A model generated the notes under the pieces. The model ran no database searches. It was not told the origin of the DNA and saw only the letters and a list, made by a program, of their open reading frames with translations. Source: Bacteroidota bacterium (GTDB lineage Bacteria; Bacteroidota; Ignavibacteria; UBA10030). Taken from it: a DNA stretch of 64,000 nt. The translations under genes were made by a program, and so were the position numbers. The stretch's first letter is position 1. Each line of letters opens with the position of its first letter. The DNA is taken from positions 100,905 through 164,904 of the forward strand of contig DATMBF010000005.1 in assembly GCA_035559595.1 (NCBI GenBank). The letters are read 5' to 3'. Shown here piece after piece: positions 3,381 to 59,349 of the stretch.

Positions 3381-4718
3381 TCACTTAACCCTTTTGCCAT
3401 GTTTTATCACCATATCCACGCGCTGCAACAGCGTAATATATCTCAACACATCTCCCTTCAACGCAATGATGTCGGCGTACTTTCCTTCACTCACGGTTCC
3501 GTAGTCTTTATCGACTTTCATCGCAACGGCAGGCCAGTACGTCGCAGCACGGATGGCTTCCATCGGCTCAACGCCAAGCTTGTTGACCCAGATATCGAGC
3601 TCATTCCAAGTGGATTGGCTATGGAATTTCATCGGAATGCCGCTGTCCGTTCCGATCAGGAGAACGACACCGGATTCTTTAAGCTGCTGAAATTTTCGCG
3701 TCAATGTTGGTCGTCGGCTCGGTGTAATCTGGAAGTAGGAAAGGCGGTCGGGATAGGCGATTGATGTCTTGATATCCTGAATGATCGAATCCGGCAGGCC
3801 GAGATGCCATGACGTCTCGTCAAGCTTCTCGGGGTTATCGCGAATGTACTCATAGTTGAAAAGTCCCTCGATCGTCGGCGTCCAGAAAAGGGGTCCAAGA
3901 TTCATCTTGGCGGTACGCTCACGAATCATCTCTATGATGTCCGGTGGATACTCCGGCGCTGTTGCCAATCCCGTATGTTCGAAGCAATCGATGCCGGCCG
4001 CTAAGCCGCGTCGAATTTCCTCGGGACGATGAGAGTGTGCAACTACCGGCAGTTTGTACTTATGCGCTTCATCGACGACGGCATTCACCTCATCCATTGT
4101 CATTTGGTCATGATCGATCAGTTTGATGCAATCGACCCCGGCTTGCGCGAGTCTTCGGACTTTTGCTCGCGCATCCGCGGCTCCGTTCACTCCCCAACGA
4201 AACAACTCTGTCCCGGGATATGGAGCTTTCTGGATGAAGGGGCCTGAAACGTAGAGCGTCGGACCTGGAATCCTTCCTTCTCGAATCGCATTCCGTACAT
4301 TGATACTCGCTTCGAGCGGGGCGCCTAAGTCCCTTGCGCTTGTCACCCCAGCCATCAACAGCTGTCGCGCAGAGGCGGGCATGATGATCGATTCGAAGAC
4401 AGCGGGATACTTCTTGTCCCAATGTGAATAATCGGCATGCCCGTTGATCATTAAATGCACGTGCATATCCCAGAGTCCGGGGAGGATGGTCATCCCTTCT
4501 GTTGAGATAACTTCCGCTCCATCTGGGATCCTCATCCCAACGCGTCCGACAGCCTTTATCCGCTCCCCTTCAATGATAATGACGCTGTTCTGAATCGGTT
4601 TCCCACCGAAACCATCAATGAGCGTTCCACCCACCAATGCTTTGAGGTTTTGAGAAAGGATGGGACAGAGAGGAAGTATGGCAAGAATGAGGACGGCGAG
4701 GATTCTGATCGCATTCAT
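3381..4718 (-). CDS. Secreted amidohydrolase family protein (metal-dependent hydrolase)
   Basis: The start was reassigned to MNAIRILAVLILAIL (signal peptide), which has an AAGGAGG RBS 5 nt upstream. It carries the 'DMHVHLMINGHADY' metal-binding motif and an 'HS...EE' region typical of the amidohydrolase fold. Confidence 0.8.
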   Translation of the reverse strand: MNAIRILAVLILAILPLCPILSQNLKALVGGTLIDGFGGKPIQNSVIIIEGERIKAVGRVGMRIPDGAEVISTEGMTILPGLWDMHVHLMINGHADYSHWDKKYPAVFESIIMPASARQLLMAGVTSARDLGAPLEASINVRNAIREGRIPGPTLYVSGPFIQKAPYPGTELFRWGVNGAADARAKVRRLAQAGVDCIKLIDHDQMTMDEVNAVVDEAHKYKLPVVAHSHRPEEIRRGLAAGIDCFEHTGLATAPEYPPDIIEMIRERTAKMNLGPLFWTPTIEGLFNYEYIRDNPEKLDETSWHLGLPDSIIQDIKTSIAYPDRLSYFQITPSRRPTLTRKFQQLKESGVVLLIGTDSGIPMKFHSQSTWNELDIWVNKLGVEPMEAIRAATYWPAVAMKVDKDYGTVSEGKYADIIALKGDVLRYITLLQRVDMVIKHGKRVK

Positions 4719-4759
4719 AATTTCCTCCTTGAGAAGCGAAATGTCAGGGGAAAAAAGTC

Positions 4760-5203
4760 TCAGTGTATCGAGAAGCTGGGCATAAGCGACGTGGCAACGA
4801 GAAAGAATCGGCCGATGACGCAATCGAACATATCGCCATTATCACGCTGCATCTGATAGGTTCCTTCCATCGTTCCCCATTCGGTTTGAAGCGGACAGAA
4901 GCTGTCATACTCGAACGATTCACCGGGCTCAAGGCGCGGAGTCTTACCCACGACACCAGGGCCTTTCACATCCTCCTGTTTTCCATCGGCATCAATGATG
5001 ATCCAATGGCGTGAGAGGAGGCGGGCCGGTTCCGTTCCCTCGTTGGTAATCGTGATGTGGTAGCCGAACACGTAACGATGACTTTGCGGATCGGAATGTT
5101 CGGCAAGATATCGTGCTTCCGCACGGACGCGAATTCCGTGTGTAACCGCTTCGGAGTGGAGTGGTTGTTTCATGGCATTCGTTGGAGTAAGCAGTGGGTT
5201 CAA
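4760..5203 (-). CDS. apaG: ApaG (DUF525) domain protein
   Basis: 'VRAEARYLAEHSDPQSHRYVFGYHITITNEGTEPARLLSRHWIIIDADGKQEDVKGPGVVGKTPRLEPGESFEYDS...PLQTEWGTMEGTYQM' matches the ApaG fold signature (GxGVVG, TPxG). Confidence 0.75.
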   Translation of the reverse strand: MNPLLTPTNAMKQPLHSEAVTHGIRVRAEARYLAEHSDPQSHRYVFGYHITITNEGTEPARLLSRHWIIIDADGKQEDVKGPGVVGKTPRLEPGESFEYDSFCPLQTEWGTMEGTYQMQRDNGDMFDCVIGRFFLVATSLMPSFSIH

Positions 5204-5246: not shown

Positions 5247-6629
5247 TCAAGAATGCCTGTCCGTTTTGATTTTCCGCCGCCAATAGAAGTATGCCGGGAT
5301 CCCCGAGACCATCATCATCGCACCGATGATCGAGTCGCGAGGGTTTTCGACGATTGCGTTCGCAATGAGATAAAAAGAGAACGCGATAAAGAGGCCAGGC
5401 GTGTAAGGATATCCCCACGTCTTGTAGGGGCGATGGACATTCGGCCAACGTTTGCGGAGAAGGAAAACACCGAAGCAGGACATTGCATAAAAGACCCAGG
5501 AAGCGAAAATGACGTAGGTGAAGAGTTGCTCATAGGTACCGGTAAGAACCAGAAAGCATGCCCAGCCCCCTTGAGCGAGAAGCGAAGGGATTGGGGTCTT
5601 GTATTTCGGGTGGACGGTGGCGAGCGATTCAAAGAAGACCCCCTCTTTTGCCATTGCATAGTAAATGCGTGCGCCCGTGAACACGTAGCCATTGTTGGCG
5701 CCAAACGTGGAGAGGATAACAGCGAGGGTGACGAAGGAGGCACCGGCAGGACCCATGATTACGGTCGCGGCGTCTGATGCGACAAGCGTGGATTGAGAAA
5801 GCTGTTCAATCGACAAGACGTAGACATATGCAACGTTGATGAGGAGATAGAGGACAATGATGATGATTGTTGAGAGGATAAGGGATCGATGCACATTGTG
5901 ATCCGGATTCTTCACTTCTCCGGCGACGAAGGTGATTTCAATCCAGCCGTCGTAAGCCCAGAGAACCGCAATCATTGAGATACCGAAGGGACCCAGCATT
6001 GATGTCAATGAATCCGCAGGGAGGAGGGGTTGGAAATTGGTTAGCGATCCACCGCTCAGCATGAAGCTGAAGAGAATCAAGAGGCCCAATGCCGCAATCT
6101 TGGAGAAGGTAAACCCATTCTGAATCCATGCCCCAAGCTTCACGCCAAAACAGTTGATAACAGTCAGAAGAAGAATCGAGGCGATAGCGATTGTTTTGAT
6201 GGCAGTATCATCGAGCGGAATGAAAAAGGCGAGATAGGTGGCAAAAGCAACGGCAATCGCCGAAATCGATCCGGAGATGATCACGACAAAAGCTGACCAG
6301 CCATAGAGGAAACCCCAGAGCGGACTGTAAATTTCGCGGAGGAAAACAAACTGTCCCCCTGCTCTCGGCATCAGCGCGCCAAGCTCCGCAATCGAAAGTG
6401 CTCCGAACAGACTGACCACACCGCCGAGCACCCAGACAAGGAGAATCATCGACGTTGAGGGGAGATGACCTGCAATGGAGGCCGGCACAATGAAGATCGC
6501 AGAGGCGATGATGCTGCCGACATTGATCATCGTGGAGTCGAGAAGGTTGAGCTCACGCCGAAGACCGTTCGACGTATCCGACACGGCCTGCAAACTCTTC
6601 GATTGTGGAGTCAACGACTCAGGAATCAC
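5247..6629 (-). CDS. APC family amino acid permease
   Basis: A 460-aa, roughly 12-TM protein with the N-terminal motif 'LNLLDSTMINVGSIIASAIFIVP' typical of amino acid/polyamine/organocation transporters. Confidence 0.8.
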   Translation of the reverse strand: MIPESLTPQSKSLQAVSDTSNGLRRELNLLDSTMINVGSIIASAIFIVPASIAGHLPSTSMILLVWVLGGVVSLFGALSIAELGALMPRAGGQFVFLREIYSPLWGFLYGWSAFVVIISGSISAIAVAFATYLAFFIPLDDTAIKTIAIASILLLTVINCFGVKLGAWIQNGFTFSKIAALGLLILFSFMLSGGSLTNFQPLLPADSLTSMLGPFGISMIAVLWAYDGWIEITFVAGEVKNPDHNVHRSLILSTIIIIVLYLLINVAYVYVLSIEQLSQSTLVASDAATVIMGPAGASFVTLAVILSTFGANNGYVFTGARIYYAMAKEGVFFESLATVHPKYKTPIPSLLAQGGWACFLVLTGTYEQLFTYVIFASWVFYAMSCFGVFLLRKRWPNVHRPYKTWGYPYTPGLFIAFSFYLIANAIVENPRDSIIGAMMMVSGIPAYFYWRRKIKTDRHS

Positions 6630-7813
6630 GATGCGTTACGTGCGCGTCGGTAGAATTGTTTGAGGAGGGATTGAAAATGATAGACGCCGAGTTCGGTTTC
6701 CGGCGAGAAACGGCCCTTATGGTAGGCAATGGATTCGAGCCCCTTCTGGACCCGTTCACAGATCTCGATGTCTTCAAGCTGAATCTTGTGGCTGTATTCA
6801 ATATCCTGCTCGATCATTCGTAAGGCTTTGGGTGAGCTGATGTCGTCGTAACAATAATCGAAGATGACCCGCGTGTGATTGTGATCCACCGGCAGAACAA
6901 GGTTCGTTTGTAGCCGACCGGGGAGGATATTCAACATGAAGTTCGGAAACACGAAGTAGTAGAATGCTCTCCCATGATCGGCAGAATAGAAATTCTCTCC
7001 TTCGGTAAAAGGGCTGTATTGGAGGGAATAGAAATTGCTCGTCTCCGTCACATAATGGTTATAGTCCAGAAGCTTGGCAAGTTCCGGATGAACGTACGGC
7101 AGGTGGTAGCCTTCAAGATAGTTGTCGATGTAAACCTTCCAGTTGCAGCGAATGTCGTATGTGACTCGTCTGAAGAACGTTTTGGTCTTCAGGTCGAAAG
7201 GCGTGATGCGAGCAGGTATGTCTTTCAGTATTGAGTTGAGCGATGTTGCCGTGCCCGACAAATCCACGAACACCAGACCTTCCCATTCCTCCAATCGAAT
7301 CGGCACCAATCCAAAATCCTTCTTGTCGAAAAGCTCGACACGATTGAATTTCGGGGTGCCACGGAGGCTCCCATCGAGAAGGTACGTCCATCCATGGTAG
7401 TGGCATTGGAGAACTTTTGAGTTGCAATCTTCGATGGCCAGTGGCCCACCTCTATGTCTGCAAACGTTGAAGAATGCCCGGAGCCTATGGTCGTCCCCAC
7501 GAACGACGAGGATCGGATTCCCTGCCGCCTCACCAACAATTTGGTCTCCCGGGTTCTGGAGCTTCGATACATGTCCGACACCTTGCCAAGTTTTGCCAAG
7601 CACGAATCGAAGATCAATCTCATGAAAGCGTGGATCTGTATACCATGTGGATGGAATGGTCTCCGCTTGTTCCAGTGGAGCAAGAGAAAGATCTTCTTCC
7701 GTAAAATCAGGAAGAGATGAACTATGGATTTGCATTTCTTTGGGAGATAGAATAAGCTGGTTGTCGTTGTTCTTCGCGCTGCCCAATGTAGTGACCCGAC
7801 GCAGAAAATGCAA
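6626..7813 (-). CDS. Rieske [2Fe-2S] non-heme iron oxygenase alpha subunit-like (ring-hydroxylating or choline-monooxygenase-like)
   Basis: Rieske motif 'CRHRGGPL...CHYHGWTY' and a downstream mononuclear iron site 'EGYHLPYVHPE'. It overlaps the permease gene by 4 nt. An alternative start is MQIHSSS at 7735. Confidence 0.75.
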   Translation of the reverse strand: MHFLRRVTTLGSAKNNDNQLILSPKEMQIHSSSLPDFTEEDLSLAPLEQAETIPSTWYTDPRFHEIDLRFVLGKTWQGVGHVSKLQNPGDQIVGEAAGNPILVVRGDDHRLRAFFNVCRHRGGPLAIEDCNSKVLQCHYHGWTYLLDGSLRGTPKFNRVELFDKKDFGLVPIRLEEWEGLVFVDLSGTATSLNSILKDIPARITPFDLKTKTFFRRVTYDIRCNWKVYIDNYLEGYHLPYVHPELAKLLDYNHYVTETSNFYSLQYSPFTEGENFYSADHGRAFYYFVFPNFMLNILPGRLQTNLVLPVDHNHTRVIFDYCYDDISSPKALRMIEQDIEYSHKIQLEDIEICERVQKGLESIAYHKGRFSPETELGVYHFQSLLKQFYRRARNAS

Positions 7814-10327: not shown

Positions 10328-10762
10328 CTACACTTTAAACTCAGAACTTGAAACCGTTCGGTTGGAAATCACTGACGCGGTCCGCAACCCTCCGATGACA
10401 TGGCACAAGACTCCTCCCACACTCAGGAATGCAGCCACGAGCGTCAACGGTCTCGTCGGACTCGCCATAGGCGGTTCAACGAAGAAAGCGAGGATGAAGA
10501 GAATCGGGGCAAGGAAGAGAATACGAGAACCGAATGTTTGAAGTTTGTTCCTCCACTTCGTAGAGCTTTCGGTGAGATAGAGTCCAAGACAGAGATTGAG
10601 GAGCCCCGAGAAGAGAATGTACACATGGTTAGCCCGATACAGAAAGCGAATGCTTTCGTTACCGGCATGCAGATCCGGAAATCCCGATCGCATGTAGGCC
10701 CCCGTTGCGAGAAAGACAAGACATGTCAAGAATCCGACGATGAGATGGAGTTTCCTGTGCAT
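10328..10762 (-). CDS. Small 4-TM membrane protein, last gene of the cytochrome operon
   Basis: A 144-aa ORF with four hydrophobic helices. Its start overlaps the stop of the upstream octaheme cytochrome gene. Confidence 0.5.
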   Translation of the reverse strand: MHRKLHLIVGFLTCLVFLATGAYMRSGFPDLHAGNESIRFLYRANHVYILFSGLLNLCLGLYLTESSTKWRNKLQTFGSRILFLAPILFILAFFVEPPMASPTRPLTLVAAFLSVGGVLCHVIGGLRTASVISNRTVSSSEFKV

Positions 10763-10764
10763 AG

Positions 10765-13029
10765 CTACTCCTTTCTGAGAGCTTTCAGCAAGTCTCGGCG
10801 CATTTGGTTTGCCGATTCGTTCTGAGCGTCAAAGATGAGTCCTTCATTTACCGCGGCCAGCGCTTTTTCGTATTGCCGTGTCAGGATGTAAGCACGTGCG
10901 AGATAGAAATGGCCGAGTGCCATTCCGAAATCCAAGTCGACGGCTTTTTCGTACAACGGAATTGCCCTCTGCGGTTGATTAGCCTGAAGGTAGACATTTG
11001 CCAGATTGAAATAGGCGAGAGGCTCAAAAGGATTCTGCTCAATCGCCTGCTCGTATGTCACGATAGCGCGGCTCATGTTGCCTTGAGCCGCGTATGCAAT
11101 GCCGAGATTGACCAGTGCTAACGATTGAGCCGGATTGAGATCCAAACTCATTCGGTAATGTCTTATTGCCTCGCCGTAATCTCCAGCAGCCGCATACGCA
11201 TGTGCGAGGTTGAGATGGAGGTCGGCGTCATTGGGCGACACTTCAAGTGATTTCAGATAGAACTCTATTGCGCCGTGGGGATTCTCGCTCTCTCGCTCCC
11301 GATCGCCAAGAAATCCCAGCACCAAACTTATCCGACGGCGTAATGCATCTCTGTCTTGAGCATTGGCTTCCCCAAGGATTGAATTGATTCTTTCTTTGCG
11401 CTCCGCGAGCAGAAGGGCGCTCAGTGCAATTGCACGAACATCAATGTCCGAATGCCGGGCCAATTTCGAGAGCGAATCCAAAACAAAGGCAGACACTTCC
11501 TTGCGATCGGTACTAAGGTAGTTTTCAAGGAAGAAGGAAACTCCGGCAAACTGAGCCATCGGATGACGTGCAGAGGGGAGGAGAACCCTTCGTGCTGCAT
11601 CTTCGAGAGTTTTGCTCTGGTGAGCGGAAAGCAATCCGCGGACGATTTCTGGATGGGGCTTGATTTCACCGTACCATCTGCGCATAATGCCCTCGAGCGA
11701 ATCGGGCTTCATCGAGGAATGACATCGGCTGCAGGCGCTCTCTATCCCAAGCTGTTCGTCGAACACTGGCCGGGGAATCGATATTGTGTGGTCCGAGCGC
11801 GCAAAGCGAATAGATTTGCCCACCTCGGGATGCTGCAGGTAGGGCATATGGCATGCCACACATCGGCTTCCGTCGGACCCCTCCTTGTGAAATGTGTGTC
11901 GCTGGGGTGCTTCAGCCTTGCTGGAGTGGCAGCCTGTACATTGGCGATCGTCAAACCGGTCGGGCAACGGATTTCGATTGATGTCGCGATAGCCCTGACT
12001 GTGCGGGTCGTGACAACTCACACACGTCATGGATCCGTTCAAATAACAGTCGCTAAAAAAATGGCCCTCCTGATAAGCGAACGTTTTGGTCCGTCCGTCG
12101 GGGTGAAGGTGAGACTCACCCAGCAGTGGCAGTTTGAGGGAGTAATACCTCTCGAGCTTTGATCCGGGGAGATATCCTTGCTGAAGAACATCTTTTACCG
12201 CATGACATTGAAAGCAAACAAGAAGTGATTCATCTTTTGACAGTGTGGAGAGGGAACGCAATCCAATATCGTCTGTCATTCTACCGCTGCGGGCAAGCTG
12301 GACGTGTCGCTTTGCCGGGCCATGACACGACTCACAATCTATCGTGAGAGAGGTGACGTGAGTCTCGTATTTCTTTCGGTTCTGATCGAATCGAAGAGAG
12401 ATCTGACTTCCGTGACATTCCTGGCAATGAGAAAACCGACGGTCAGTGCCAAGCACCCGCGTTGGCGGCCAATCGCTGCATTCGGCAAGCCTGAGTTCGT
12501 CGTTGATGGGGACCCACCCTTTGTTCCCTTTTCCGATCGTATTGGCGAACCACATTCGTCCTTGTTTGCTGTAATCGAAGGGAAGAAACCGCAACGTCCC
12601 GTCAGGGAATTGTGTTACGAAACCCTGTGTACCGCCTCCAACCATATGACCGCGTCCGATAACTCCATCGACTCGAAAAACCCTCTCTCTGGCATTCGAT
12701 GGACGGACTGTAAAAACATATTCTCCGTTTTGAGCGACGGATGGAATGACAACTGCATCCTTGAAGCGGATCGGTGTTCCGTCAAATGGTGCTATAAGAG
12801 TTTCGGGGATTGGCAGTCCGCCGGCATTGCCGTGTGTTGAGTGAACCCAGGCATCGTATTGCTCTGCGTGACAATTCTTACAGGTTTCAGCTCCCGCAAA
12901 GTCCGAGAACGAGATCGACTTCGTGGCTGTGAATGACGTTTGAGAGGTACTATCAAAGCGGGATGATTCGAAGGCGAGAAAGAGTCCCAGCCAGCAGGGG
13001 AGCAAGGCGAGGAAGAGTTGCGGCCTCAT
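10765..13029 (-). CDS. Octaheme c-type cytochrome with C-terminal TPR repeat domain
   Basis: Eight CXXCH motifs (CKNCH, CQECH, CESCH, CFQCH, CVSCH, CTGCH, CVACH, CSRCH). The first is followed by 'AEQYDAWVHSTHG' (CXXCH-x6-W-x2-S-x-H, as in the NapC/NrfH/c554-type family). The C-terminal 250 aa or so are TPR repeats (e.g. 'YFNLANVYLQANQPQRAIPLYEKAVDLD'). The start was chosen at M15 (signal-like MRPQLFLALLPCWLGLFLAF), giving an ATGA overlap with the upstream gene. Confidence 0.8.
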   Translation of the reverse strand: MRPQLFLALLPCWLGLFLAFESSRFDSTSQTSFTATKSISFSDFAGAETCKNCHAEQYDAWVHSTHGNAGGLPIPETLIAPFDGTPIRFKDAVVIPSVAQNGEYVFTVRPSNARERVFRVDGVIGRGHMVGGGTQGFVTQFPDGTLRFLPFDYSKQGRMWFANTIGKGNKGWVPINDELRLAECSDWPPTRVLGTDRRFSHCQECHGSQISLRFDQNRKKYETHVTSLTIDCESCHGPAKRHVQLARSGRMTDDIGLRSLSTLSKDESLLVCFQCHAVKDVLQQGYLPGSKLERYYSLKLPLLGESHLHPDGRTKTFAYQEGHFFSDCYLNGSMTCVSCHDPHSQGYRDINRNPLPDRFDDRQCTGCHSSKAEAPQRHTFHKEGSDGSRCVACHMPYLQHPEVGKSIRFARSDHTISIPRPVFDEQLGIESACSRCHSSMKPDSLEGIMRRWYGEIKPHPEIVRGLLSAHQSKTLEDAARRVLLPSARHPMAQFAGVSFFLENYLSTDRKEVSAFVLDSLSKLARHSDIDVRAIALSALLLAERKERINSILGEANAQDRDALRRRISLVLGFLGDRERESENPHGAIEFYLKSLEVSPNDADLHLNLAHAYAAAGDYGEAIRHYRMSLDLNPAQSLALVNLGIAYAAQGNMSRAIVTYEQAIEQNPFEPLAYFNLANVYLQANQPQRAIPLYEKAVDLDFGMALGHFYLARAYILTRQYEKALAAVNEGLIFDAQNESANQMRRDLLKALRKE

Positions 13030-14699
13030 CGGTTTCCTTCTTGCGACCAGGCAGGACCCTCGCAGGTACACAGCGTGCGAATGAATCGAACGAGACTCCA
13101 GATCTGCTCGCGGGTAAGTGTCTTTCCAAAGGCGGGCATAAAATGACTTTTGCCAAGAACTCTACCGCCACCATAAATTCCATCAAAAAGCGTGTCGTCG
13201 CTTCGCACCGACATGACAGAAGGATCCGAGTGTTTTGCGGGTTGCACAGGGAGGTAGCGGGCGTTAAATCCGTCTCCGTTGCCTCGCAGACCATGACACG
13301 GTGAGCAATAATGCGTGTAAAGGCGCCCGGCTTCGGTTGTGTCAGGTCGGCCGGGATTTCCATGATCGATGATGTTGAGTTGTGGAAGATGTTGAGGTTT
13401 CTTGTCGCGCGTTGATAAAAACGTAGCGAGCAATTCGACATCCGACTTCGGCAATGGGAGGGCAGGCATGGCACTCTCATGAACCGTGCCCTGAGGATCC
13501 TTGATTATTCGGTAAACAAAGGTCGGTTGAAGTCTCGGCTTGAGCGAAGAAAGGTCCGGGCCAACCATTCCTCCCTTACCATCGAAGCGGTGGCAGCCGA
13601 AGCAGGGAAGTTGCGTGCGTAAGATGTTCTCTGCTTTGCGTTGAGAGAATGGCGAAAGACGAGTGGGGGTAAACGTCGCGTCGACATCGCTCTTGAGCGA
13701 AGCGAGGTGTGATGTGAGCGTTTCCAGTTCATCGGTTGTGAGGTCATAAGAGGGCATTCTGCTGCCGGTTCCCGGATGAAAACCGAAAGGCCGGATCGTG
13801 TGCGGTTGTGCGAGGTATGACCGAAGCCATGTCTGATGGACACGAGAGCCTTCTGTGCTTAAATCCGGCGCGTTGTGCCGTTGATTCACTCCACGCATTG
13901 CATGACACCCGCCGCAATTCTGAAACTCGAAAATCCTTGCTCCGTCTTCAGCGGTAACGGTCGGGTTCGCACTCCGAACTCTCTGGTATGCGACCTCCAT
14001 TGTTTCACGTTCCTTTGCCCCAAAGCTCATCAGATAGCTAACCATAACCTGAATCTTGCTTCCTGCATCCTGAATCACCTCTTTCAACTCGTTCTTTTCC
14101 TGATCCTTGCTATAAACTTGCGCCGGCATTGGTGATCCGGGATCAAATGCCTGAGGCAACGCGAGGTATTGGACAAGCCAGTTTGCTTTCGCTCTCAAAC
14201 CAACGCTGACCAAATCCAGAGCAATTGGTCCGCCCTGACCTTCGAGCTTGTGACAGAATGTGCATTTCAACTCATCGACGATCATCTTGCGGGCCTCGGC
14301 AGTACGAGGAGACTTGCGGTCCCACGACTGAACAATCGTGGGGAACGCCGGCAGGGGTTGGTCGGTTTTCAACCGTTCCTTCAAATACAACACTAACGCC
14401 AGCCTCTCCCGCTCGGTTAACCGGAAGTTGGGCATTTGTGTCTTACCGATGTGCAAGCGCACTCGTTTGGGATTCCCAAGATAGTCAAAGAGATACGCTT
14501 CTGGATAACGCAGCCCGGCGTAGCTCAACGATGGAGCTTTGGTTTCAATCTCAGCAGCAGGTTCAACCCCCGGATGACAGGCGCCACAGGCAAGCTCAGT
14601 CACAAGTTGGCGTGCAGATTGGGATTGGGCAGAAGGTGTCAATACGAACACAGCAATGAAGGCAATGGCGAAGTGAACAGACTTCACGAGGGGGACCAC
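13026..14699 (-). CDS. Pentaheme protein made of five class-I cytochrome c domains
   Basis: Five CXXCH motifs (CGACH, CTFCH, CGGCH, CFGCH, CSPCH). Each is followed by a 'GG/GP' turn and a distal Met-Pro (MPNF, MPAQ, MPSY, MPAL, MPAF), the usual Met sixth-ligand arrangement. There is an N-terminal signal peptide. Confidence 0.8.
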   Translation of the reverse strand: MVPLVKSVHFAIAFIAVFVLTPSAQSQSARQLVTELACGACHPGVEPAAEIETKAPSLSYAGLRYPEAYLFDYLGNPKRVRLHIGKTQMPNFRLTERERLALVLYLKERLKTDQPLPAFPTIVQSWDRKSPRTAEARKMIVDELKCTFCHKLEGQGGPIALDLVSVGLRAKANWLVQYLALPQAFDPGSPMPAQVYSKDQEKNELKEVIQDAGSKIQVMVSYLMSFGAKERETMEVAYQRVRSANPTVTAEDGARIFEFQNCGGCHAMRGVNQRHNAPDLSTEGSRVHQTWLRSYLAQPHTIRPFGFHPGTGSRMPSYDLTTDELETLTSHLASLKSDVDATFTPTRLSPFSQRKAENILRTQLPCFGCHRFDGKGGMVGPDLSSLKPRLQPTFVYRIIKDPQGTVHESAMPALPLPKSDVELLATFLSTRDKKPQHLPQLNIIDHGNPGRPDTTEAGRLYTHYCSPCHGLRGNGDGFNARYLPVQPAKHSDPSVMSVRSDDTLFDGIYGGGRVLGKSHFMPAFGKTLTREQIWSLVRFIRTLCTCEGPAWSQEGNR

Positions 14700-15256
14700 T
14701 AGAAGGTGAATGTCAGATCGGTATTTCCAAGACTGGAGAGGAAGTCTTGCATCAGTCCCCCATTCCTAATAATGACAATACTGTAGTCGTTGAACCGGCC
14801 GTTGATCCCGTAGGTCCATCGTGTGAAGATGATTTCACCAGTTGACGTGAACTTCTTTGGATACCTGACTGGCTCGAGGCGGAAGTCTGGCTGAAGGTTC
14901 GGGTTTGAATCTACCCAAGCAAGGAGGCCTCGATTTCCAGATCGATCGGCGGGTAAATCCATTCGGAATGTTCTTGTAGCTGTCGTGCCCGAGATCGTTT
15001 TGGTTGAAAGAAAAGCGTAGGGGGGAGAAACGTCGAATGAGTCTACTACTTCAAGTGTATTAAAGACAGCAAAATCCGAGACAAAAGCGAGGATCACATC
15101 CTTTGTGGCAAGTGAGTCCGGAAGTTGAATTGACCCCGAGACAGTTGTGATCTCGGGCTCTTCTGGTTGTTCGTCTTGTTGTAAACAACCGCCGGAGCGA
15201 AGTGCGAGAACGAAAAGAATCAGAAGAAAGATCCTTACATGCCACATAACGACCAC
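14699..15256 (-). CDS. Lipoprotein, first gene of the cytochrome operon
   Basis: Signal peptide with lipobox LALRSGGC. The 185-aa protein is beta-rich and ends in TFTF. No family recognised. Confidence 0.5.
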   Translation of the reverse strand: MVVMWHVRIFLLILFVLALRSGGCLQQDEQPEEPEITTVSGSIQLPDSLATKDVILAFVSDFAVFNTLEVVDSFDVSPPYAFLSTKTISGTTATRTFRMDLPADRSGNRGLLAWVDSNPNLQPDFRLEPVRYPKKFTSTGEIIFTRWTYGINGRFNDYSIVIIRNGGLMQDFLSSLGNTDLTFTF

Positions 15257-15289: not shown

Positions 15290-16507
15290 CTATTTACAAG
15301 TTTCAGAAATGATCTGACCGTTGATGAGTACGCCGCACACATGGCTTGTATATTCGAACGGGTCTCCGTCAAACAGAACGACATCGGCATCTTTGCCGGC
15401 TTCCAGCGACCCAATACGCTTATCGACCCCAAGAATCTTGGCCGCGTCGATGGTGATCGAGGCGAGTGCGTCCTCGTGCGAAAGTCCGTTTGCTGCAGCA
15501 ATTGCAGCTTCATACAGAATTACCCGGACACGTGGAACGTAGCCTTCAAATCCACTCTGGAGTGCGAAGGGGATTCCTGCAGATTTTAGCTTGGCCGCCG
15601 TTTCGAATGATGCGTTTCTGGTATCCCCTGCCGTTCGCACCATTGTCGGGTGCAGAATCACGGGAACACTGGCGTTTTTGATTTCGTCGAGGATGAGGTA
15701 GCTTTCCGCTGCCCCATCGAGGATGGGTCTGAAGTTAAACTCCTTTGCAAGTCGCAGCACAGCCAGAATGTCGGTGGCACGGTGAGCAGTAAACAAAGCT
15801 TTTACCTCACCGGCGAGAACTTTCGCAAGCATTTCTGATTTCAAATCTCTCGCGGGGCGCTTTTCAGGATCCTTATTCTGCATCTTTTTCGCATAATCTT
15901 GGGCTTTCAGGAACTCGTTTCGGATCATTGCCACGCTTTTGGCCCGTGTTCCGGGTGAGCGGAAGTTGTTGCTGACCGATTCGCCAAGTGTGAACGCAAT
16001 CATTCCAGTGGGATCGACCAGGGCCTCTGAAACCGTATTCCCAACAGTTTTCACGACAATAGTCGAGCCACTCGCAAGTGCACCTGGACCGTGCCCTGTG
16101 TTAACCGTTGTGACGCCTAGATTGCGGACCCAATTCACAAGCTGTTCGCGCGGATTATAGGCGTCGATAGCACGAAGCTCCGGCTGCATTGGATCGGATT
16201 TCTCCAATTGCATCTGGTCGTGGGGCACGTTGTAAATTCCGGCCAGGCCGACTGTTGTATGGGCATCGACGAGACCCGGTGTTACCACTTTTGCTGTTAG
16301 AACTCTGTATTCCGACGGAATCGTAACTTGGGCAGCAGCCCCAACGTGTTCGATCTTGTTTCCGGAAATCAACACAACGCCATTCTGAAGAGGTGCTCCC
16401 GCCATCGTGTAAACAATTTCTCCTCGAATCGCTATTTGAGAATGCAGAATTTCGGAAGAAGGGAGGAGTAGGAGACTGACCATGAATACCATTTGACGGA
16501 TTCTCAT
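15290..16507 (-). CDS. Secreted amidohydrolase family protein
   Basis: A 405-aa protein with a signal peptide and the 'PGLVDAHTTVGLAG' metal-binding region. It is a paralog of the downstream gene and shares an ATGA overlap with it. Confidence 0.75.
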   Translation of the reverse strand: MRIRQMVFMVSLLLLPSSEILHSQIAIRGEIVYTMAGAPLQNGVVLISGNKIEHVGAAAQVTIPSEYRVLTAKVVTPGLVDAHTTVGLAGIYNVPHDQMQLEKSDPMQPELRAIDAYNPREQLVNWVRNLGVTTVNTGHGPGALASGSTIVVKTVGNTVSEALVDPTGMIAFTLGESVSNNFRSPGTRAKSVAMIRNEFLKAQDYAKKMQNKDPEKRPARDLKSEMLAKVLAGEVKALFTAHRATDILAVLRLAKEFNFRPILDGAAESYLILDEIKNASVPVILHPTMVRTAGDTRNASFETAAKLKSAGIPFALQSGFEGYVPRVRVILYEAAIAAANGLSHEDALASITIDAAKILGVDKRIGSLEAGKDADVVLFDGDPFEYTSHVCGVLINGQIISETCK

Positions 16508-17805
16508 TGGTCACCTCCTTCGCAAGCATCGCCAAGAAAGCCATCACGAAACACTTCATAGCCACCGGTCGAATACTTTCTGTCGTCTGGATTCAACCGG
16601 TCGTAGACCTTCTTTCCTTCAACCCATGTTTGCTCAACATGCGTGTATGTGCTGAGAGGATCGCCGGAGAGAATGATGAAGTCGGCATCCTTGCCCGGTT
16701 TCAGCGATCCGATTCGTTTGTCGAGATCCATCATTTTTGCACCGGCGAGTGTAAGCGCTTCGAGGGCTTTCTCTCGCGACATTCCCGCTCTCACACCAAA
16801 TGCGGCAGCTCGAAGAAAAAGCCGTGAATCCGTAACTCCATCGTCAGTATGGTATCCCACGAGTGCTCCGGCCTTCTCGAGTGCGGCGCCGTTTTCGTAA
16901 CTGATATCCACCGCTTCGAGTTTTCCCCCCGGAGAATCCAGAACGATAATGGAAGAAGGAACTCCGGCAGCAGCAATCTCTTTTGCCACCTTCCATGCCT
17001 CACTGACGTGGTGCAACACCACGCGGAACCCAAACTCCTGCTTTAACCGAAGGACTGTGAGAATATCCTCCTGCTTGTGCGTATGATGATGCACAATGCG
17101 TTTTCCATCGAGGACCTGAACAAGTGCCTCCATGTCAAGCTCACGCTTCGGCATCTTTTCCGGATTTCCTTTGGCGGCCTGGACTCTCGCTCGATACTCT
17201 TGTGCTTTCACAAAAAGCTGTCGAATCATCGCGGCAGATTTTGCTCGTGTTCCCGGAAACGGTTTTTCGCGAATAGAGTTCGTGCCGTTTGCCATTTTCA
17301 TCCCGCCGCAGATGTCGTTGAGAGGATCGGTACAAAACAACATGTCGTTGATCGTGTTCGCACCTGCGCGGAGCTTGAGATAAACCGTCTGACCACTCAT
17401 CAAGTGTCCCGACCCGGGCATGACATTCACGCTGGTAATTCCACCGGCCAGAGCTTTCTTAAAATAGTCGTGTCGTGGATCGACAGCATCGAGAATCCTC
17501 ACATCGGGATGGGTTGCTGCGGATTGATCGCCACCGGATCCTCCACCGATGTGGGAGTGGGTGTCGACAAGTCCGGGCATAATGACTTTGCCTGTCACGT
17601 CCCGTACTTCGGCGTCTGACGGAATACTCACACCGCCGGATTTTCCAACAGCAGTGATGATCCCGCCTTTGAGGATAAGGATTCCGTTTTCAATCGCTGG
17701 TCCTTCGATGGGATAAACCGTAGCTCCGCGAAATGCTATTGGTTTGTCTTGAGCGAAGCACAGGATGGAGATGAAAAGCAAAGGAGCAAGGAATCTCAAG
17801 CTCAT
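16504..17805 (-). CDS. Secreted amidohydrolase family protein
   Basis: The start was reassigned to MSLRFLAPLLFISILCFAQD (signal peptide), which has an AAGGAG RBS. It carries 'PGLVDTHSHIGGGSGGD' and is a paralog of 15290-16507. Confidence 0.75.
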   Translation of the reverse strand: MSLRFLAPLLFISILCFAQDKPIAFRGATVYPIEGPAIENGILILKGGIITAVGKSGGVSIPSDAEVRDVTGKVIMPGLVDTHSHIGGGSGGDQSAATHPDVRILDAVDPRHDYFKKALAGGITSVNVMPGSGHLMSGQTVYLKLRAGANTINDMLFCTDPLNDICGGMKMANGTNSIREKPFPGTRAKSAAMIRQLFVKAQEYRARVQAAKGNPEKMPKRELDMEALVQVLDGKRIVHHHTHKQEDILTVLRLKQEFGFRVVLHHVSEAWKVAKEIAAAGVPSSIIVLDSPGGKLEAVDISYENGAALEKAGALVGYHTDDGVTDSRLFLRAAAFGVRAGMSREKALEALTLAGAKMMDLDKRIGSLKPGKDADFIILSGDPLSTYTHVEQTWVEGKKVYDRLNPDDRKYSTGGYEVFRDGFLGDACEGGDQ

Positions 17806-18007
17806 GAAGAGTCTCCTTCTTTTGGTGGGCATTTCAGGGCAAGTTTGCGTCGAAGAAAGTAACGACAATCAACTGATGAGTCAAGAGGGAAATCGCAAAC
17901 GCATTGAGCCAATGAGAGTCGGAAGAATTAAGTCTGTGATCACTTTGTTCGCACGCCTTCCGGGCATCTGACGGTTTGATTTCACCACAGAGAGACAACG
18001 AGCAGGG

Positions 18008-21570: not shown

Positions 21571-23247
21571 TTAACGAAGCCTCTCGAGTGCCCTCAGTTT
21601 TTCTTCAGCTCGCCGCTTATATTCGAGCGTGGCTGTGTGTTGCGGATCGATCAGAAGGACTTTGTTCCACTCATCGAGTGCCGCTTTATACTCTTCTTTG
21701 ATGTAGAGCTGAACTCCAGCTCTGAAGATTTTGTCGATCTCAGTTTTTAGTGCTTCTCGCGCACGCTCGAGGTACGTCCTGGCATCACGATGTTTCTCGT
21801 CCCGCTGTAACACTTCGACCATTGTGTTTACAGCAACCCAATAATTCGATTCATCGAAGGCGGCTTTTCCACGCTCAAAGATTTCTTGCACTCTCTTCCC
21901 CCGCACGCTTTCGAGACCCTTTCGCGCGTCGGCATTGCGAGGCTCCATGGCGAGCACTCGCTCGAACTCTCTTTGTGCTTCGTCCAGCTGGTTGCGGCTC
22001 AACAGCGTGCGTGCGCGATTCAAGATCGTCTGGACGTTCTCCTTCATCATTCCCTCTAATTCGGTAAGCTTTACCATGATGCTATCATTCAGAGGGTCGA
22101 GTTCAAGCACCTGCTCATACGAACGCCGCGCACGCTCGAAATCTCGCCGCGCTCGAAGACTGTCACCAACCGAGAGCAGCCTTCGCACATTCGATTCGAG
22201 AATTGGTCTAACTGCCTCCAGCCGCTTTTCAACCTCGGAGTGATTCGGTTGCATTTTCAGAATTGTCTGATATCGTTTGATTGCCTCAACATAGTTCTTT
22301 CGTTCTTCAAGTTTCGATGCTTCGTCAAACAGGGCAGAAACGTTACTATCGAGCTCCGCTTGCGTTTGTTCAATCATTGCATGCGCATTGTGAAAATATT
22401 CATCGTACTCGAGAGCCAGAATGAATTGGTCACGGGCGTCCGACAGCCGTTTTTCTTCATATGCTTCCATCGCTGCTTCAAAATGCTTTGAACGTAAGTC
22501 TTTTGCAGCTTCGCTGAATCTGAAACTTACCGAGAAGACAATGCCGGCTTTGCCGGCCGCGAGCTCAAGTTTCGCAAAGTTGGATTGAAGACTGACCCCA
22601 CCGCGGATTTCCTTAAATGCACGAGATCCAACTTGGAGGCCCAACCAATCTGCAGCCAAGAGTTCGGAACCGACAACGAGTTCACCCCGCTCTGCTTTTT
22701 GCCATCCCGCCTGAACTCTCCAAGTGTCACGCAGGAGCCAAAACCCGACACCTGCTTGCAAACCCATCGGCGAACCGAAAGGCTGCTTCGGCAGATCGTT
22801 GACACTCACGCCGAAATGAAAGCCGGAATTCGCAGAAACGGAGTCCGGAAAATGGAGTGCAGATCCGACCGAGAAAGAAAACGTTTCCTTCGCATTTCGA
22901 AAAAGGTTCAGCACCGCTCCGATCGTGTGTACGTCGCCGATAAGTCCGCCATAGCCGACGGTGTATTGTGTTGCTTGACCGAGTTGCGCAATTCCGGCCC
23001 CAAACGTACCTACAAAGGGGAAAAAATGCGCAGCACTCATAGAAGAGAAATTTGAAAAGCGATTTGTACTGAGGAGAAACTCCGATTGATGGAGGCGAGC
23101 CATCTCAGCCGGATTAGAAAACAAGGCTGACGGACGGGGGAGCCACATACTTGAACTTCCGCCAAGTGCATAATCGTTACCCCCTGTTGTTTGTGCAGCG
23201 AGAGGAGAAATAATGAAAACAAGAAGAAGGTGGGGGAGGTATTTCAT
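21571..23247 (-). CDS. Secreted protein with an N-terminal beta-rich (possibly PorP/SprF-like barrel) domain and C-terminal TPR repeats
   Basis: A signal peptide and 250 aa or so of alternating-hydrophobic beta-like sequence containing an 'FSNPAEMARL' (NPA) motif. The rest is TPR-like repeats (e.g. 'YEQVLELDPLNDSIMVKL'). The gene overlaps the upstream cyclase gene by 4 nt. Confidence 0.55.
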   Translation of the reverse strand: MKYLPHLLLVFIISPLAAQTTGGNDYALGGSSSMWLPRPSALFSNPAEMARLHQSEFLLSTNRFSNFSSMSAAHFFPFVGTFGAGIAQLGQATQYTVGYGGLIGDVHTIGAVLNLFRNAKETFSFSVGSALHFPDSVSANSGFHFGVSVNDLPKQPFGSPMGLQAGVGFWLLRDTWRVQAGWQKAERGELVVGSELLAADWLGLQVGSRAFKEIRGGVSLQSNFAKLELAAGKAGIVFSVSFRFSEAAKDLRSKHFEAAMEAYEEKRLSDARDQFILALEYDEYFHNAHAMIEQTQAELDSNVSALFDEASKLEERKNYVEAIKRYQTILKMQPNHSEVEKRLEAVRPILESNVRRLLSVGDSLRARRDFERARRSYEQVLELDPLNDSIMVKLTELEGMMKENVQTILNRARTLLSRNQLDEAQREFERVLAMEPRNADARKGLESVRGKRVQEIFERGKAAFDESNYWVAVNTMVEVLQRDEKHRDARTYLERAREALKTEIDKIFRAGVQLYIKEEYKAALDEWNKVLLIDPQHTATLEYKRRAEEKLRALERLR

Positions 23248-58832: not shown

Positions 58833-59349
58833 GGCGACCCAATTCGTGGTGTGAAAATGCTCGAAAAAACCGCCGTAATGTAAGAATGGACTCAGCCAAA
58901 AGCAACAGAAGGAGATGGCGAAGCAATTTGAGAAGAATCTGCGCTTGTCAAATCCCTCCCTGCTAAATGCCATGAACGACAGGCTCTTCCAGCATTCATC
59001 ATGTATTACTGTATCCGTCGATCCGGTCATTCGATTGGCTTCCTTGACATGCATACCCTCTTTTGATATATTGGCTCTACGTTTGGCAGGTCGGTTGTTA
59101 AACCATCCACTATAGTTTGCGACAGTTTGCGCAAGAAAGCGCACCGCTTCCTTCGTCTGGTACCCATTTCCACCACAATGGTTTGGCGTTCCTTCGATTC
59201 AGTCTTCGGTTGTTGCGTTTGCTCTCCGGTGATCATCCTCACATATTCTTCCGCTGAAAAACGGGTATTTTGTGTAGTTGACGATCAGCGGGGCGGGAGA
59301 ACCGTTTGCAGTGCACAGTTAACTACTCTCAACATTTCCGGTCAACACT

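What the first reader, a model, noticed from the sequence alone, without database searches (positions are those of the whole stretch)
10328..15256. Compact four-gene c-type cytochrome module with 13 hemes in total
Four minus-strand genes are linked by 1-4 nt overlaps, which suggests a single transcription unit. They are a lipoprotein (14699-15256), a pentaheme protein of five class-I cytochrome c domains (13026-14699), an octaheme cytochrome fused to about 250 aa of TPR repeats (10765-13029), and a 4-TM membrane protein (10328-10762). No catalytic subunit (molybdopterin, Cu or heme-copper) lies in the unit. It therefore resembles a periplasmic or outer electron-transfer conduit rather than a known terminal reductase or oxidase complex. 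Two secreted amidohydrolases lie immediately upstream on the same strand, possibly co-transcribed.
Basis: partly seen in the sequence, partly recalled or inferred. Interest (0 to 1): 0.7.

Follow-up and report, generated by a model that had tools for sequence, protein, structure and literature searches.

The report
Octaheme enzyme-like cytochrome with pentaheme partner
The 13-heme gene cluster is real, but its conserved core is only two genes: an uncharacterised, widespread octaheme cytochrome related to known multiheme enzymes (MccA, OcwA) and fused to TPR repeats, plus a high-potential pentaheme partner. It is therefore more likely an enzyme with its electron shuttle than a passive electron conduit.

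Summary
Four tightly packed minus-strand genes encode a lipoprotein, a 5-heme class-I cytochrome, an 8-heme cytochrome fused to TPR repeats, and a small membrane protein. There are 13 CXXCH motifs and no Mo, Cu or heme-copper subunit.

The interpretation needs revision in two ways.

1. Only the pentaheme–octaheme pair is conserved. A class-I multi-domain cytochrome c lies directly upstream of the octaheme gene in 79 of 104 orthologous loci from many phyla. In two MAGs the two genes are fused into one 13-heme protein. The lipoprotein, the membrane protein and the amidohydrolases occur only in the closest relatives.

My best reading is a membrane-anchored periplasmic multiheme oxidoreductase of unknown substrate, wired to the high-potential respiratory chain. 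I found no description of this family in the literature I could search.

The parts
10765..13029 (-). Octaheme c-type cytochrome fused to C-terminal helical/TPR repeats (754 aa; alternative GTG start at 13071). Presumed catalytic subunit with an N-terminal hydrophobic anchor or signal.
11650..12912 (-). Heme domain of the octaheme protein (residues ~40-460), with an MccA/OcwA-like heme core.
   Evidence: The eight motifs map in order onto MccA motifs in the aligned stretches.
12340..12762 (-). β-sheet domain between heme 1 and heme 3 (residues ~90-230). It carries invariant motifs (GHMVGGGTQGF, DGTxRFLPF, DWPPxRxLG) and flanks the heme-2 motif.
   Evidence: Secondary structure of the confident model. 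Invariant columns. The OcwA paper states that only OcwA and MccA share such a domain.
12412..12426 (-). Heme-2 binding motif C202-Q-E-C205-H206. Candidate active-site heme by homology with heme 2 of MccA, OcwA and c554.
   Evidence: It aligns with OcwA 'CAGCH' and MccA 'CEVCH'. Heme 2 is the active site in both proteins (PMC6703420). The assignment here is an inference.
10780..11280 (-). TPR repeats (residues ~584-750) at the C-terminus of the octaheme protein.
13026..14699 (-). Pentaheme cytochrome made of five class-I cytochrome c domains, each with CXXCH plus an invariant Met (His/Met ligation). It has a Sec-type leader and a conserved C-terminal CxC motif. Presumed redox partner of the octaheme protein.
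   Evidence: Adjacent upstream of the octaheme gene in 79 of 104 loci. Fused to it in L041 and L045.
14699..15256 (-). Small lipoprotein (182-185 aa), a lineage-specific accessory gene. Its stop overlaps the pentaheme start.
   Evidence: Invariant lipobox Cys. Only 14 clusters among 1.8 billion representatives. Found next to the pair only in L083 and L084.
10328..10762 (-). Small 3-4-TM membrane protein, 2 nt downstream of the octaheme gene. Probably co-transcribed here but not part of the conserved module.
   Evidence: Hydropathy. Homologues elsewhere are not next to cytochromes. Present after the octaheme gene only in the window and L083.
15290..17868 (-). Two amidohydrolase-family genes with leaders, upstream on the same strand. 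This neighbourhood is conserved only in the closest relatives.
   Evidence: Pfam Amidohydro_1 and Amidohydro_3. Also upstream in L083 and L084, where L084 has a GT87 gene inserted between them and the lipoprotein. Absent from the other loci.

Best explanation
The functional unit is a two-protein periplasmic redox enzyme system.

The octaheme-TPR protein, probably held on the cytoplasmic membrane by its N-terminal hydrophobic segment, is a catalytic multiheme cytochrome of the c554/MccA/OcwA branch of the NrfA/HAO superfamily. A small substrate is probably turned over at heme 2 (C202QECH). This heme sits against the family's extra β-sheet domain, in a pocket lined by family-specific invariant residues (H128, H323, C328, Y329, Y347, K279, several Arg).

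The remaining hemes relay electrons to or from the co-encoded pentaheme protein. Its five His/Met class-I hemes would connect the enzyme to the high-potential end of the respiratory chain (the cytochrome c pool, ACIII or cytochrome oxidase). The TPR solenoid probably docks a partner or mediates oligomerisation.

The substrate is unknown. A high-potential partner makes MccA-type sulfite reduction energetically unlikely. It favours either reduction of a high-potential acceptor (NO, hydroxylamine, nitrite, tetrathionate, peroxide) or oxidation of a donor such as thiosulfate or hydroxylamine, with electrons passed on to oxygen.

**Shown:** gene structure, heme motifs, fold and profile homology, conservation and fusion of the pair, His/Met pattern.
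**Inferred:** catalysis at heme 2, membrane anchoring, direction of electron flow, connection to the respiratory chain.

The lipoprotein, the 4-TM protein and the amidohydrolases are lineage-specific neighbours. They may be co-transcribed here, but they are not needed to explain the system.
For: **Fold and family**
- Profile search gives OcwA 5.5e-15, MccA 4.5e-9, and weak NrfA and c554 hits. Single-sequence hits agree.
- The eight motifs align in order with MccA heme motifs in the aligned stretches.
- A β-rich domain lies between hemes 1 and 3. The literature says only OcwA and MccA share such a domain and that heme 2 is the active site in both (PMC6703420; family framework in PMC9250108).

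**Signs of an active site**
- Only six non-motif His are conserved across orthologues and 25%-identity paralogues, for eight hemes.
- The orthologue group adds its own invariant H128, C328, Y329, Y347, K279 and five Arg. H323 and C184 are Cys/His in 88% of sequences.
- About 65 columns are invariant across 120 sequences at ~50% identity. This degree of constraint is unusual for a pure wire.

**Partner**
- Five CXXCH motifs, each with an invariant Met.
- Directly upstream in 29 of 45 genome loci and 50 of 59 metagenome loci, as 5-, 4- or 2-domain versions.
- Genuine fusions into one 13-heme ORF, joined by a Pro/Ala-rich linker and lacking the TM segment, in L041 and L045.

**Context**
- No other redox enzyme is a conserved neighbour.
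- 101 of 120 homologues have an N-terminal hydrophobic segment. It is preceded by a tail of 10 or more residues in 63 of them, which suggests an anchor rather than a cleaved signal.
Against: - No heme coordinates were available, so the open distal site at heme 2 is inferred from homology and from counting conserved His. A Met, Lys or C328 could be the sixth ligand, leaving all hemes six-coordinate.
- MccA's signature features are absent or unmappable: there is no CX15CH or CX17CH motif, and I could not place its Cu-binding Cys pair on this sequence.
- OcwA, the nearest structure, works physiologically as an electron-transfer terminal reductase, and its enzymatic rates with nitrite are low. Fold membership therefore does not prove enzymatic function.
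- The heme-domain-only model was poor (pLDDT 60), and its Foldseek hit to MccA was not significant (E 0.047).
- One quarter of orthologous loci lack the adjacent class-I cytochrome.
- There is no expression or biochemical data for any member.
Confidence: 0.6

Rival explanations
1. Electron-transfer conduit. The 13 hemes only carry electrons across the periplasm or to the cell surface, to or from an extracellular or distant acceptor or donor such as Fe(III), Fe(II), humics or another complex. There is no catalysis at a heme. The lipoprotein and the 4-TM protein serve as outer and inner anchors.
For: - OcwA, the closest solved structure, is a cell-surface terminal reductase for extracellular electron transfer.
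- No separate catalytic subunit is present.
- In this lineage the gene order is lipoprotein, two cytochromes, membrane protein, tightly packed.
- TonB-dependent outer-membrane barrels lie just downstream in about 11 Gemmatimonadota/Longimicrobiales loci.
Against: - The lipoprotein and membrane protein are absent from about 160 other loci that keep the cytochrome pair.
- Homologues of the 4-TM protein elsewhere have unrelated neighbours.
- No MtrB- or Pcc-type porin is conserved next to the pair.
- The octaheme protein has an N-terminal inner-membrane-anchor-like segment.
- The partner's five His/Met hemes are expected, from general knowledge, to be too high in potential for Fe(III)-oxide reduction.
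- There is strong family-specific conservation of polar residues around the heme motifs and in the β domain.
- Host lineages are, from general knowledge, mostly aerobic heterotrophs.
Confidence: 0.2
2. MccA-like heme-copper enzyme acting on sulfur oxyanions. The two conserved free cysteines (C184 and C328) bind Cu(I) above heme 2 as in MccA, or C328 ligates a heme as in TsdA. The system would interconvert sulfite, thiosulfate or tetrathionate, with the His/Met pentaheme playing the role of TsdB. This is a substrate-specific version of the best explanation.
For: - MccA is the second-best profile hit, and its eight heme motifs match one to one in the aligned stretches.
- C328 is invariant and C184 is Cys in 105 of 120 sequences.
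- Many Arg, Lys and Tyr residues are invariant, as expected for oxyanion binding.
- A rhodanese gene lies near the pair in two Ignavibacteriales loci.
- The pentaheme has a conserved C-terminal CxC motif.
Against: - No CX15CH or CX17CH motif is present.
- No mccBCD-like genes are nearby.
- C184 is Leu in 12 sequences.
- In the alignment, C328 falls opposite non-Cys residues of MccA and OcwA.
- Sulfite reduction is thermodynamically implausible with a His/Met donor chain (established redox chemistry).
- The two rhodanese loci are syntenic relatives, so they count as one observation.
Confidence: 0.15
3. Chance or lineage-specific juxtaposition of unrelated genes, with no functional system.
For: The flanking genes (lipoprotein, 4-TM protein, amidohydrolases) do behave this way.
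Against: - The pentaheme-octaheme pair is adjacent in 79 of 104 loci across many phyla.
- It is fused into one protein in two MAGs.
- The start and stop codons overlap by 4 nt in the window.
Confidence: 0.03

Closest known systems
OcwA (Thermincola potens, PDB 6I5B), a nonaheme cell-surface cytochrome
   Different: - OcwA has nine hemes, two of them open-site with His-His motifs. This protein has eight, and MccA-like spacing.
- OcwA is an S-layer/cell-wall protein of a Gram-positive anaerobe. This protein is in diderm, mostly aerobic lineages, with an N-terminal membrane-anchor-like segment.
- OcwA has no TPR fusion and no class-I cytochrome partner.
MccA / SirA octaheme sulfite reductase (Wolinella succinogenes, PDB 4RKM)
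   Same: Eight hemes whose motifs align in order in the stretches HMMER could align. It has the extra β-sheet domain shared only with OcwA, and heme 2 as the active site (PMC6703420). Two conserved non-heme cysteines exist in both families.
   Different: - Heme 8 here uses a normal CXXCH, not CX15CH or CX17CH.
- MccA's catalytic residues could not be mapped.
- There is no MccB, MccC or MccD context.
- The partner is a high-potential His/Met cytochrome, not a quinol dehydrogenase.
- This protein has a TPR extension.
Cytochrome c554 (Nitrosomonas) and NrfA / ONR nitrite reductases
   Same: Same superfamily. There are weak profile hits to c554 (N-terminal module) and to NrfA (C-terminal module). 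Some database entries for homologues are auto-named 'nitrite reductase c552'.
   Different: There is no CXXCK active-site motif and no NrfH or NrfB partner. Similarity is confined to the heme motifs and their flanks.
TsdA-TsdB thiosulfate dehydrogenase; HAO-c554 (functional analogies only)
   Same: A catalytic c-type cytochrome co-encoded with a dedicated electron-carrier cytochrome. For TsdB the carrier hemes are His/Met class-I, as here.
   Different: TsdA is not homologous to the octaheme protein. HAO's partner c554 is not class I. This is a resemblance from general knowledge and was not tested.
Paralogous TPR-octaheme family (~25% identity) in Verrucomicrobiota, Planctomycetota, Acidobacteriota, Proteobacteria
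   Same: Same architecture: eight CXXCH motifs in register, the six conserved distal-type His, and C-terminal TPR repeats.
   Different: It lacks the orthologue-specific residues (H128, H323, C328, Y329, Y347, K279). No class-I cytochrome lies upstream. In four loci, including L074 and L079, the neighbouring gene belongs to one gene cluster whose L079 member is an FG-GAP/UnbV_ASPIC protein.

Membership tests
NrfA/HAO/MccA/OcwA multiheme cytochrome superfamily (c554/MccA/OcwA branch) | Shared heme-core fold detectable by structure comparison | tested here: met
NrfA/HAO/MccA/OcwA multiheme cytochrome superfamily (c554/MccA/OcwA branch) | Significant sequence/profile similarity across several heme motifs | tested here: met
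   Profile versus PDB: OcwA 5.5e-15 (3 stretches), MccA 4.5e-9 (3 stretches), NrfA and c554 ~3e-3.
NrfA/HAO/MccA/OcwA multiheme cytochrome superfamily (c554/MccA/OcwA branch) | At least one five-coordinate (open-site) catalytic heme | tested here: inconclusive
   Only 6 superfamily-conserved non-motif His for 8 hemes, and heme 2 aligns with the open-site heme of OcwA and MccA. No heme coordinates or spectroscopy were available.
NrfA/HAO/MccA/OcwA multiheme cytochrome superfamily (c554/MccA/OcwA branch) | Extra β-sheet domain shared by MccA and OcwA | tested here: met
   β-strands over residues ~90-230 in the confident model. The shared domain is described in PMC6703420. Domain-level superposition was not inspected.
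MccA (octaheme sulfite reductase) | Eighth heme bound by a CX15CH (or CX17CH) motif | tested here: not met
   All eight motifs are CXXCH, and heme 8 is C433SRCH. The feature is described in PMC9250108.
MccA (octaheme sulfite reductase) | Cu(I) held by two conserved Cys at the heme-2 site, plus catalytic Tyr/Lys/Arg | tested here: inconclusive
   Two conserved free Cys exist (C328 in 120 of 120, C184 in 105 of 120). They could not be aligned to MccA C399 and C495. The aligned stretch puts C328 opposite a non-Cys residue.
MccA (octaheme sulfite reductase) | mccABCD-type gene context (quinol-oxidising MccC/MccD) | tested here: not met
   No such neighbours in the window or the related loci.
OcwA/OmhA (Gram-positive surface cytochromes) | Nine or eleven hemes with two open-site hemes | tested here: not met
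   Eight CXXCH motifs here and in 108 of 121 full-length relatives.
NrfA / ONR nitrite reductase | CXXCK active-site heme motif and an NrfH or NrfB electron donor | tested here: not met
   No CXXCK. No NapC/NirT-type or NrfB gene nearby.
Alternative complex III (ActA pentaheme / ActE monoheme) | Cytochromes co-encoded with ActB (Mo-bisPGD-like/FeS) and ActC/ActF (NrfD-like) subunits | tested here: not met
   No such genes in the window or the related loci. The pentaheme is five class-I domains. Only generic class-I similarity to ActE (E 5.7e-4).
Porin-cytochrome extracellular electron conduit (MtrCAB / Pcc) | Conserved adjacent outer-membrane β-barrel porin and a periplasmic deca- or octaheme of the MtrA type | tested here: not met
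   No conserved porin among the clustered neighbours. DmsE/MtrA-type models hit far below cut-off (50.7 versus 192 bits).
Class-I cytochrome c (for the pentaheme) | CXXCH near the domain N-terminus with a Met sixth ligand downstream | tested here: met
   Five domains hit Cytochrom_C or Cytochrome_CBB3. Met 89, 191, 315, 411 and 521 are invariant in 59 homologues. Ligation itself was not observed.

The most novel reading that the evidence does not exclude
The octaheme-TPR protein and its class-I multiheme partner form a previously unrecognised and very widespread periplasmic oxidoreductase. It occurs in Gemmatimonadota, Longimicrobiales, Bacteroidota/Ignavibacteria, KSB1, marine Marinimicrobia, Binatia, Verrucomicrobiota and Myxococcota. 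It would couple a nitrogen- or sulfur-cycle reaction (for example NO, hydroxylamine or nitrite reduction, or thiosulfate/tetrathionate interconversion) directly to the aerobic cytochrome c pool. That would be a missing enzyme currently hidden under the annotation 'tetratricopeptide repeat protein'.
Probability: 0.4. Interest if true: 0.75.

Novelty: new variant of a known kind. Interest (0 to 1): 0.55.

Why it matters
Multiheme cytochromes of this superfamily carry out key steps of the nitrogen, sulfur and iron cycles, and each characterised branch (NrfA, HAO, HDH, MccA, OTR, OcwA) has its own reaction.

This branch has more than 1800 sequence clusters at 90% identity. It occurs in abundant soil and ocean lineages that are mostly regarded as aerobic heterotrophs. 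It is annotated only as 'TPR protein', or occasionally mis-named nitrite reductase.

If it is an enzyme wired to high-potential cytochromes, metagenome-based budgets of N- or S-oxide turnover would be missing a player. It would also be the first example in this superfamily of a TPR-fused catalytic subunit with a class-I multiheme partner. If it proves to be only an electron carrier, the finding is of modest interest.

Tried and rejected
1. Foldseek of the full model against the PDB was swamped by TPR hits.
2. A heme-domain-only model from a 19-sequence truncated alignment was poor (pLDDT 60). Its Foldseek search gave no significant hit; MccA was top at E 0.047. I did not use it as evidence.
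3. The afdb50 library was unavailable.
4. I looked for the lipoprotein and the 4-TM protein in 160 related loci by tblastn and jackhmmer and found none beyond L083 and L084. A metagenome scan with the lipoprotein alignment also found nothing. More distant lipoprotein relatives sit on contigs too short to show context, and no cytochrome lies downstream in L090.
5. I considered the SoxX 'equivalog' hit of the pentaheme (81.9 bits, above the 61-bit cut-off). I rejected it as a sum over five repeated class-I domains, because the best stretch covers only ~50 residues.
6. I considered ACIII, NrfHA and Mtr/Pcc. All were rejected on context and motifs (see the membership tests).
7. I tried to map MccA's catalytic Cys, Lys and Tyr residues by sub-region searches. 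The alignment did not reach the relevant MccA segment.
8. The σ70 promoter and terminator scan was at chance level and uninformative for this phylum.
9. Eight literature searches for a TPR-fused octaheme cytochrome or for this family in the relevant phyla found nothing. The library is incomplete, so this is absence of evidence only.


Full report

Yes. The ORF list shows four consecutive minus-strand ORFs at 14699-15256, 13026-14699, 10765-13029 (or 13071) and 10328-10762.

- Motif counting gives five CXXCH in the 557-aa protein and eight in the 754-aa protein, with no CXXCK or longer-spaced motifs.
- Pfam assigns Cytochrom_C and Cytochrome_CBB3 (with a weak FixO hit) to the first, and a block of TPR families at residues ~580-750 to the second. 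The two small proteins have no family.
- The lipoprotein stop overlaps the pentaheme start by 1 nt, and the pentaheme stop overlaps the octaheme ATG by 4 nt. The membrane-protein gene starts 2 nt after the octaheme stop, so that junction is a gap, not an overlap.
- Two amidohydrolase genes with leader-like N-termini lie upstream on the same strand.
- NCBIfam gives no equivalog-level assignment for any of the four proteins. The SoxX score of the pentaheme is an artefact of five repeated class-I domains.
- The proteins scanned in the rest of the 64-kb window are housekeeping genes (SUF, DXS, UvrD, ExoVII, MiaA, cyclases). None is a respiratory complex.
- The exact proteins exist in a public MAG annotated as 'Bacteroidota bacterium'.

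**2. What is conserved?**

The octaheme-TPR protein has more than 1800 homologue clusters. Full-length relatives at about 50% identity occur in Gemmatimonadota, Longimicrobiales, KSB1, Ignavibacteriales and other Bacteroidota, and most are annotated only as 'tetratricopeptide repeat protein'.

I examined two independent samples of genomic context: 80 loci from species-representative genomes and 80 from metagenomes.

- **The pair is conserved.** Among orthologous loci with at least 1.5 kb of upstream sequence, a homologue of the class-I cytochrome lies directly upstream on the same strand in 29 of 45 and 50 of 59 loci. It occurs as five-, four- or two-domain versions.
- **The pair can be fused.** In two MAGs (L041, a Binatia MAG, and L045) the two genes form one 13-heme ORF. 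The pentaheme's conserved C-terminal LCxCxGPxWS motif runs through a Pro/Ala-rich linker straight into the heme-1 region of the octaheme domain, without the hydrophobic N-terminal segment. Such fusions are strong evidence of a direct functional partnership.
- **The flanking genes are not conserved.** The lipoprotein, the membrane protein and the amidohydrolases were not detected in any of these 160 loci.
  - The lipoprotein recurs only in the two closest relatives (L083 at 73% and L084 at 59% octaheme identity).
  - The membrane protein recurs only in L083.
  - The lipoprotein family is tiny: 14 clusters among 1.8 billion representatives. Its lipobox Cys is invariant.
  - Homologues of the membrane protein in Ignavibacteriales, Pirellulaceae and other bacteria sit next to unrelated genes. 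In one Ignavibacteriales MAG that also carries the cytochrome pair on another contig, the homologue sits next to a Rieske oxygenase. A Rieske oxygenase also lies 2.5 kb away in this window, so the membrane protein may belong historically to that neighbourhood.
- **No conserved redox enzyme or porin.** Neighbours of the pair in other phyla are SusC/SusD-type receptors, amidases, ABC permeases, housekeeping genes, and a rhodanese in two syntenic Ignavibacteriales loci.

**3. What is the octaheme protein?**

An AlphaFold model built on 120 homologues is confident (pLDDT 88, pTM 0.88). It shows, in order:

- a disordered or hydrophobic N-terminus;
- a heme-1 helix;
- a β-rich domain (~90-230);
- a heme-rich region (~232-460);
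- about 290 residues of helical repeats ending in canonical TPRs.

A heme-domain profile hits OcwA (5.5e-15) and MccA (4.5e-9), then NrfA and c554 weakly. In the HMMER alignments:

- heme 1 carries the shared 'C..CH..QY..W..S.H' signature;
- heme 2 (CQECH) aligns with OcwA CAGCH and MccA CEVCH;
- heme 3 (CESCHGP) aligns with CEQCHGPG and CEECHGAG;
- hemes 5-7 align with the MccA motifs in order.

The protein therefore has an MccA-like eight-heme layout.

The literature places c554, MccA, OcwA and OmhA in one clade of the NrfA/HAO superfamily. That clade is defined by an open-site heme in the N-terminal module (PMC9250108). It also states that MccA and OcwA alone share an additional β-sheet domain and use heme 2 as the active site (PMC6703420). 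The protein here has both the domain and the aligned heme.

**4. Enzyme or wire?**

Three observations lean towards an enzyme.

1. **Too few conserved histidines.** Across 37 orthologues and 20 paralogues (~25% identity), only six non-motif histidines are conserved (H66, H242, H343, H378, H381, H414) for eight hemes. At least one heme probably lacks a His sixth ligand, as in the relatives.
2. **A family-specific residue set.** The orthologous group has residues that the paralogues replace: H128/M129 in the β domain, H323, C328, Y329, M334, Y347, K279 and K371. It also has invariant R147, R191, R313, R411 and R420, and C184 in 88% of sequences. This is what one expects of a substrate pocket, particularly for an anion.
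3. **Overall constraint.** About 65 columns are invariant in 120 sequences from many phyla.

None of this is proof. I had no access to model coordinates, so I could not measure which residues face which heme. C328, M334 or K279 could be a sixth ligand.

**5. The partner and the direction of electron flow.**

Each of the five class-I domains has its CXXCH and an invariant Met in an 'MP' context (M89, M191, M315, M411, M521), which indicates His/Met ligation. From established cytochrome chemistry, such hemes are usually high-potential.

This argues against MccA-type sulfite reduction and against Fe(III)-oxide reduction. It fits two alternatives:

- reduction of a high-potential acceptor (NO, hydroxylamine, nitrite, tetrathionate, peroxide) with electrons from the cytochrome c pool;
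- oxidation of a donor, with electrons delivered to a terminal oxidase. TsdA-TsdB is the functional analogy.

The pentaheme also has a 98%-conserved C-terminal CxC motif of unknown role.

Most octaheme homologues have an N-terminal hydrophobic segment that is often preceded by a tail of 20-56 residues. This suggests a signal anchor and a periplasm-facing, inner-membrane-tethered enzyme. The fusions lack this segment and would instead use the pentaheme's leader.

**6. Comparison with known systems.**

The protein passes the tests for the superfamily and its MccA/OcwA branch (fold, profile, β domain). It fails defining features of each characterised member:

- MccA: no CX15CH or CX17CH, no mcc context;
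- OcwA: eight hemes, not nine;
- NrfA: no CXXCK, no NrfH;
- ACIII: no ActB or ActC;
- Mtr/Pcc: no porin, no MtrA-type protein.

It is therefore best described as an uncharacterised family, a new architectural variant (TPR fusion plus class-I multiheme partner) of a known kind of multiheme oxidoreductase. Eight searches of the held literature found no description of it. That library is incomplete.

**7. Verdict.**

The 'four-gene module' shrinks to a conserved two-gene system with lineage-specific passengers. The 'conduit because no catalytic subunit' reasoning is probably wrong, because the octaheme protein is the likely catalyst.

- Confidence in the enzyme-plus-shuttle reading: about 0.6.
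- Pure conduit: about 0.2.
- Interest is moderate (0.55). The family is widespread, ecologically well placed and unstudied, but its chemistry is still unknown.

Noticed in passing
L041:7970-11740 and L045:1058-5230: Natural fusions of the pentaheme and octaheme proteins into single 13-heme ORFs, joined by a Pro/Ala-rich linker. In these Binatia-type proteins the match to the window protein ends near residue 556-600, so the TPR part is shortened.
   Followed up: yes
window 13026-14699 (residues 544-546 of the pentaheme): A C-terminal Cys-x-Cys motif (LCTCEGPAWS) is conserved in 98% of 59 full-length homologues. It is unexplained; it could be a disulfide, a metal site or a thiol redox site.
   Followed up: partly
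L059-L080 (e.g. L079:12427-14097, L074): A paralogous TPR-octaheme family (~25% identity) occurs in Verrucomicrobiota, Planctomycetota, Acidobacteriota and Proteobacteria, including the isolate Thermomonas mangrovi. It lacks the class-I partner. In four loci, including L074 and L079, the neighbouring gene belongs to one gene cluster; the L079 member has FG-GAP and UnbV_ASPIC domains.
   Followed up: partly
window 10328-10762 and 6626-7813; L087:1233-2737: In an Ignavibacteriales MAG the homologue of the 4-TM protein is directly followed by a Rieske/Ring_hydroxyl_A oxygenase and preceded by a Haem_bd protein. The window has the same oxygenase type 2.5 kb away on the same strand, separated by two plus-strand genes. 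The 4-TM protein may therefore belong to that older neighbourhood.
   Followed up: partly
window 35222-38779 (+): A 1185-aa ORF with no Pfam family at E <= 1e-5.
   Followed up: no
L004, L010, L013, L019, L026, L029, L031-L033, L042, L058: In many Gemmatimonadota/Longimicrobiales loci a TonB-dependent receptor lies immediately downstream of the octaheme gene on the same strand. In most it is SusC-like with a SusD-like partner, sometimes preceded by a small PKD-like lipoprotein. These loci tend to be the ones lacking the adjacent class-I cytochrome.
   Followed up: partly
L085:489-1178, L086:1-59 and L085:5973-6491, L086:8328-8855: In two syntenic Ignavibacteriales loci the cytochrome pair is flanked by a rhodanese gene upstream and a Metal_resist/LTXXQ (Spy/CpxP-like) gene downstream, both on the opposite strand.
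   Followed up: no
window 3381-4823, 15290-16507, 16504-17868: Three amidohydrolase-family genes lie within 15 kb. The pair upstream of the cytochromes gives weak, far sub-threshold hits to several amidohydrolase equivalogs, including the Caulobacter Xaa-Pro dipeptidase model.
   Followed up: no
window 13030-13071: An alternative GTG start for the octaheme gene would add 14 residues, including an RRK n-region, and overlap the pentaheme gene by 46 nt. The public annotation uses the ATG at 13029.
   Followed up: partly
window 23244-24869 and 56634-59144: Two sensor adenylate/guanylate cyclases (HAMP/sCache-cyclase and CHASE2-cyclase) are in the window. A HAMP-cyclase also lies near the 4-TM homologue in L087.
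   Followed up: no
P0146, P0184, P0186, P0187: Some pentaheme homologue clusters are very large (180-270 member sequences, one from Tara Oceans). Orthologous loci also occur in Marinimicrobia/Fidelibacterota MAGs (L028, L039, L050), which suggests the system is abundant in the ocean.
   Followed up: no
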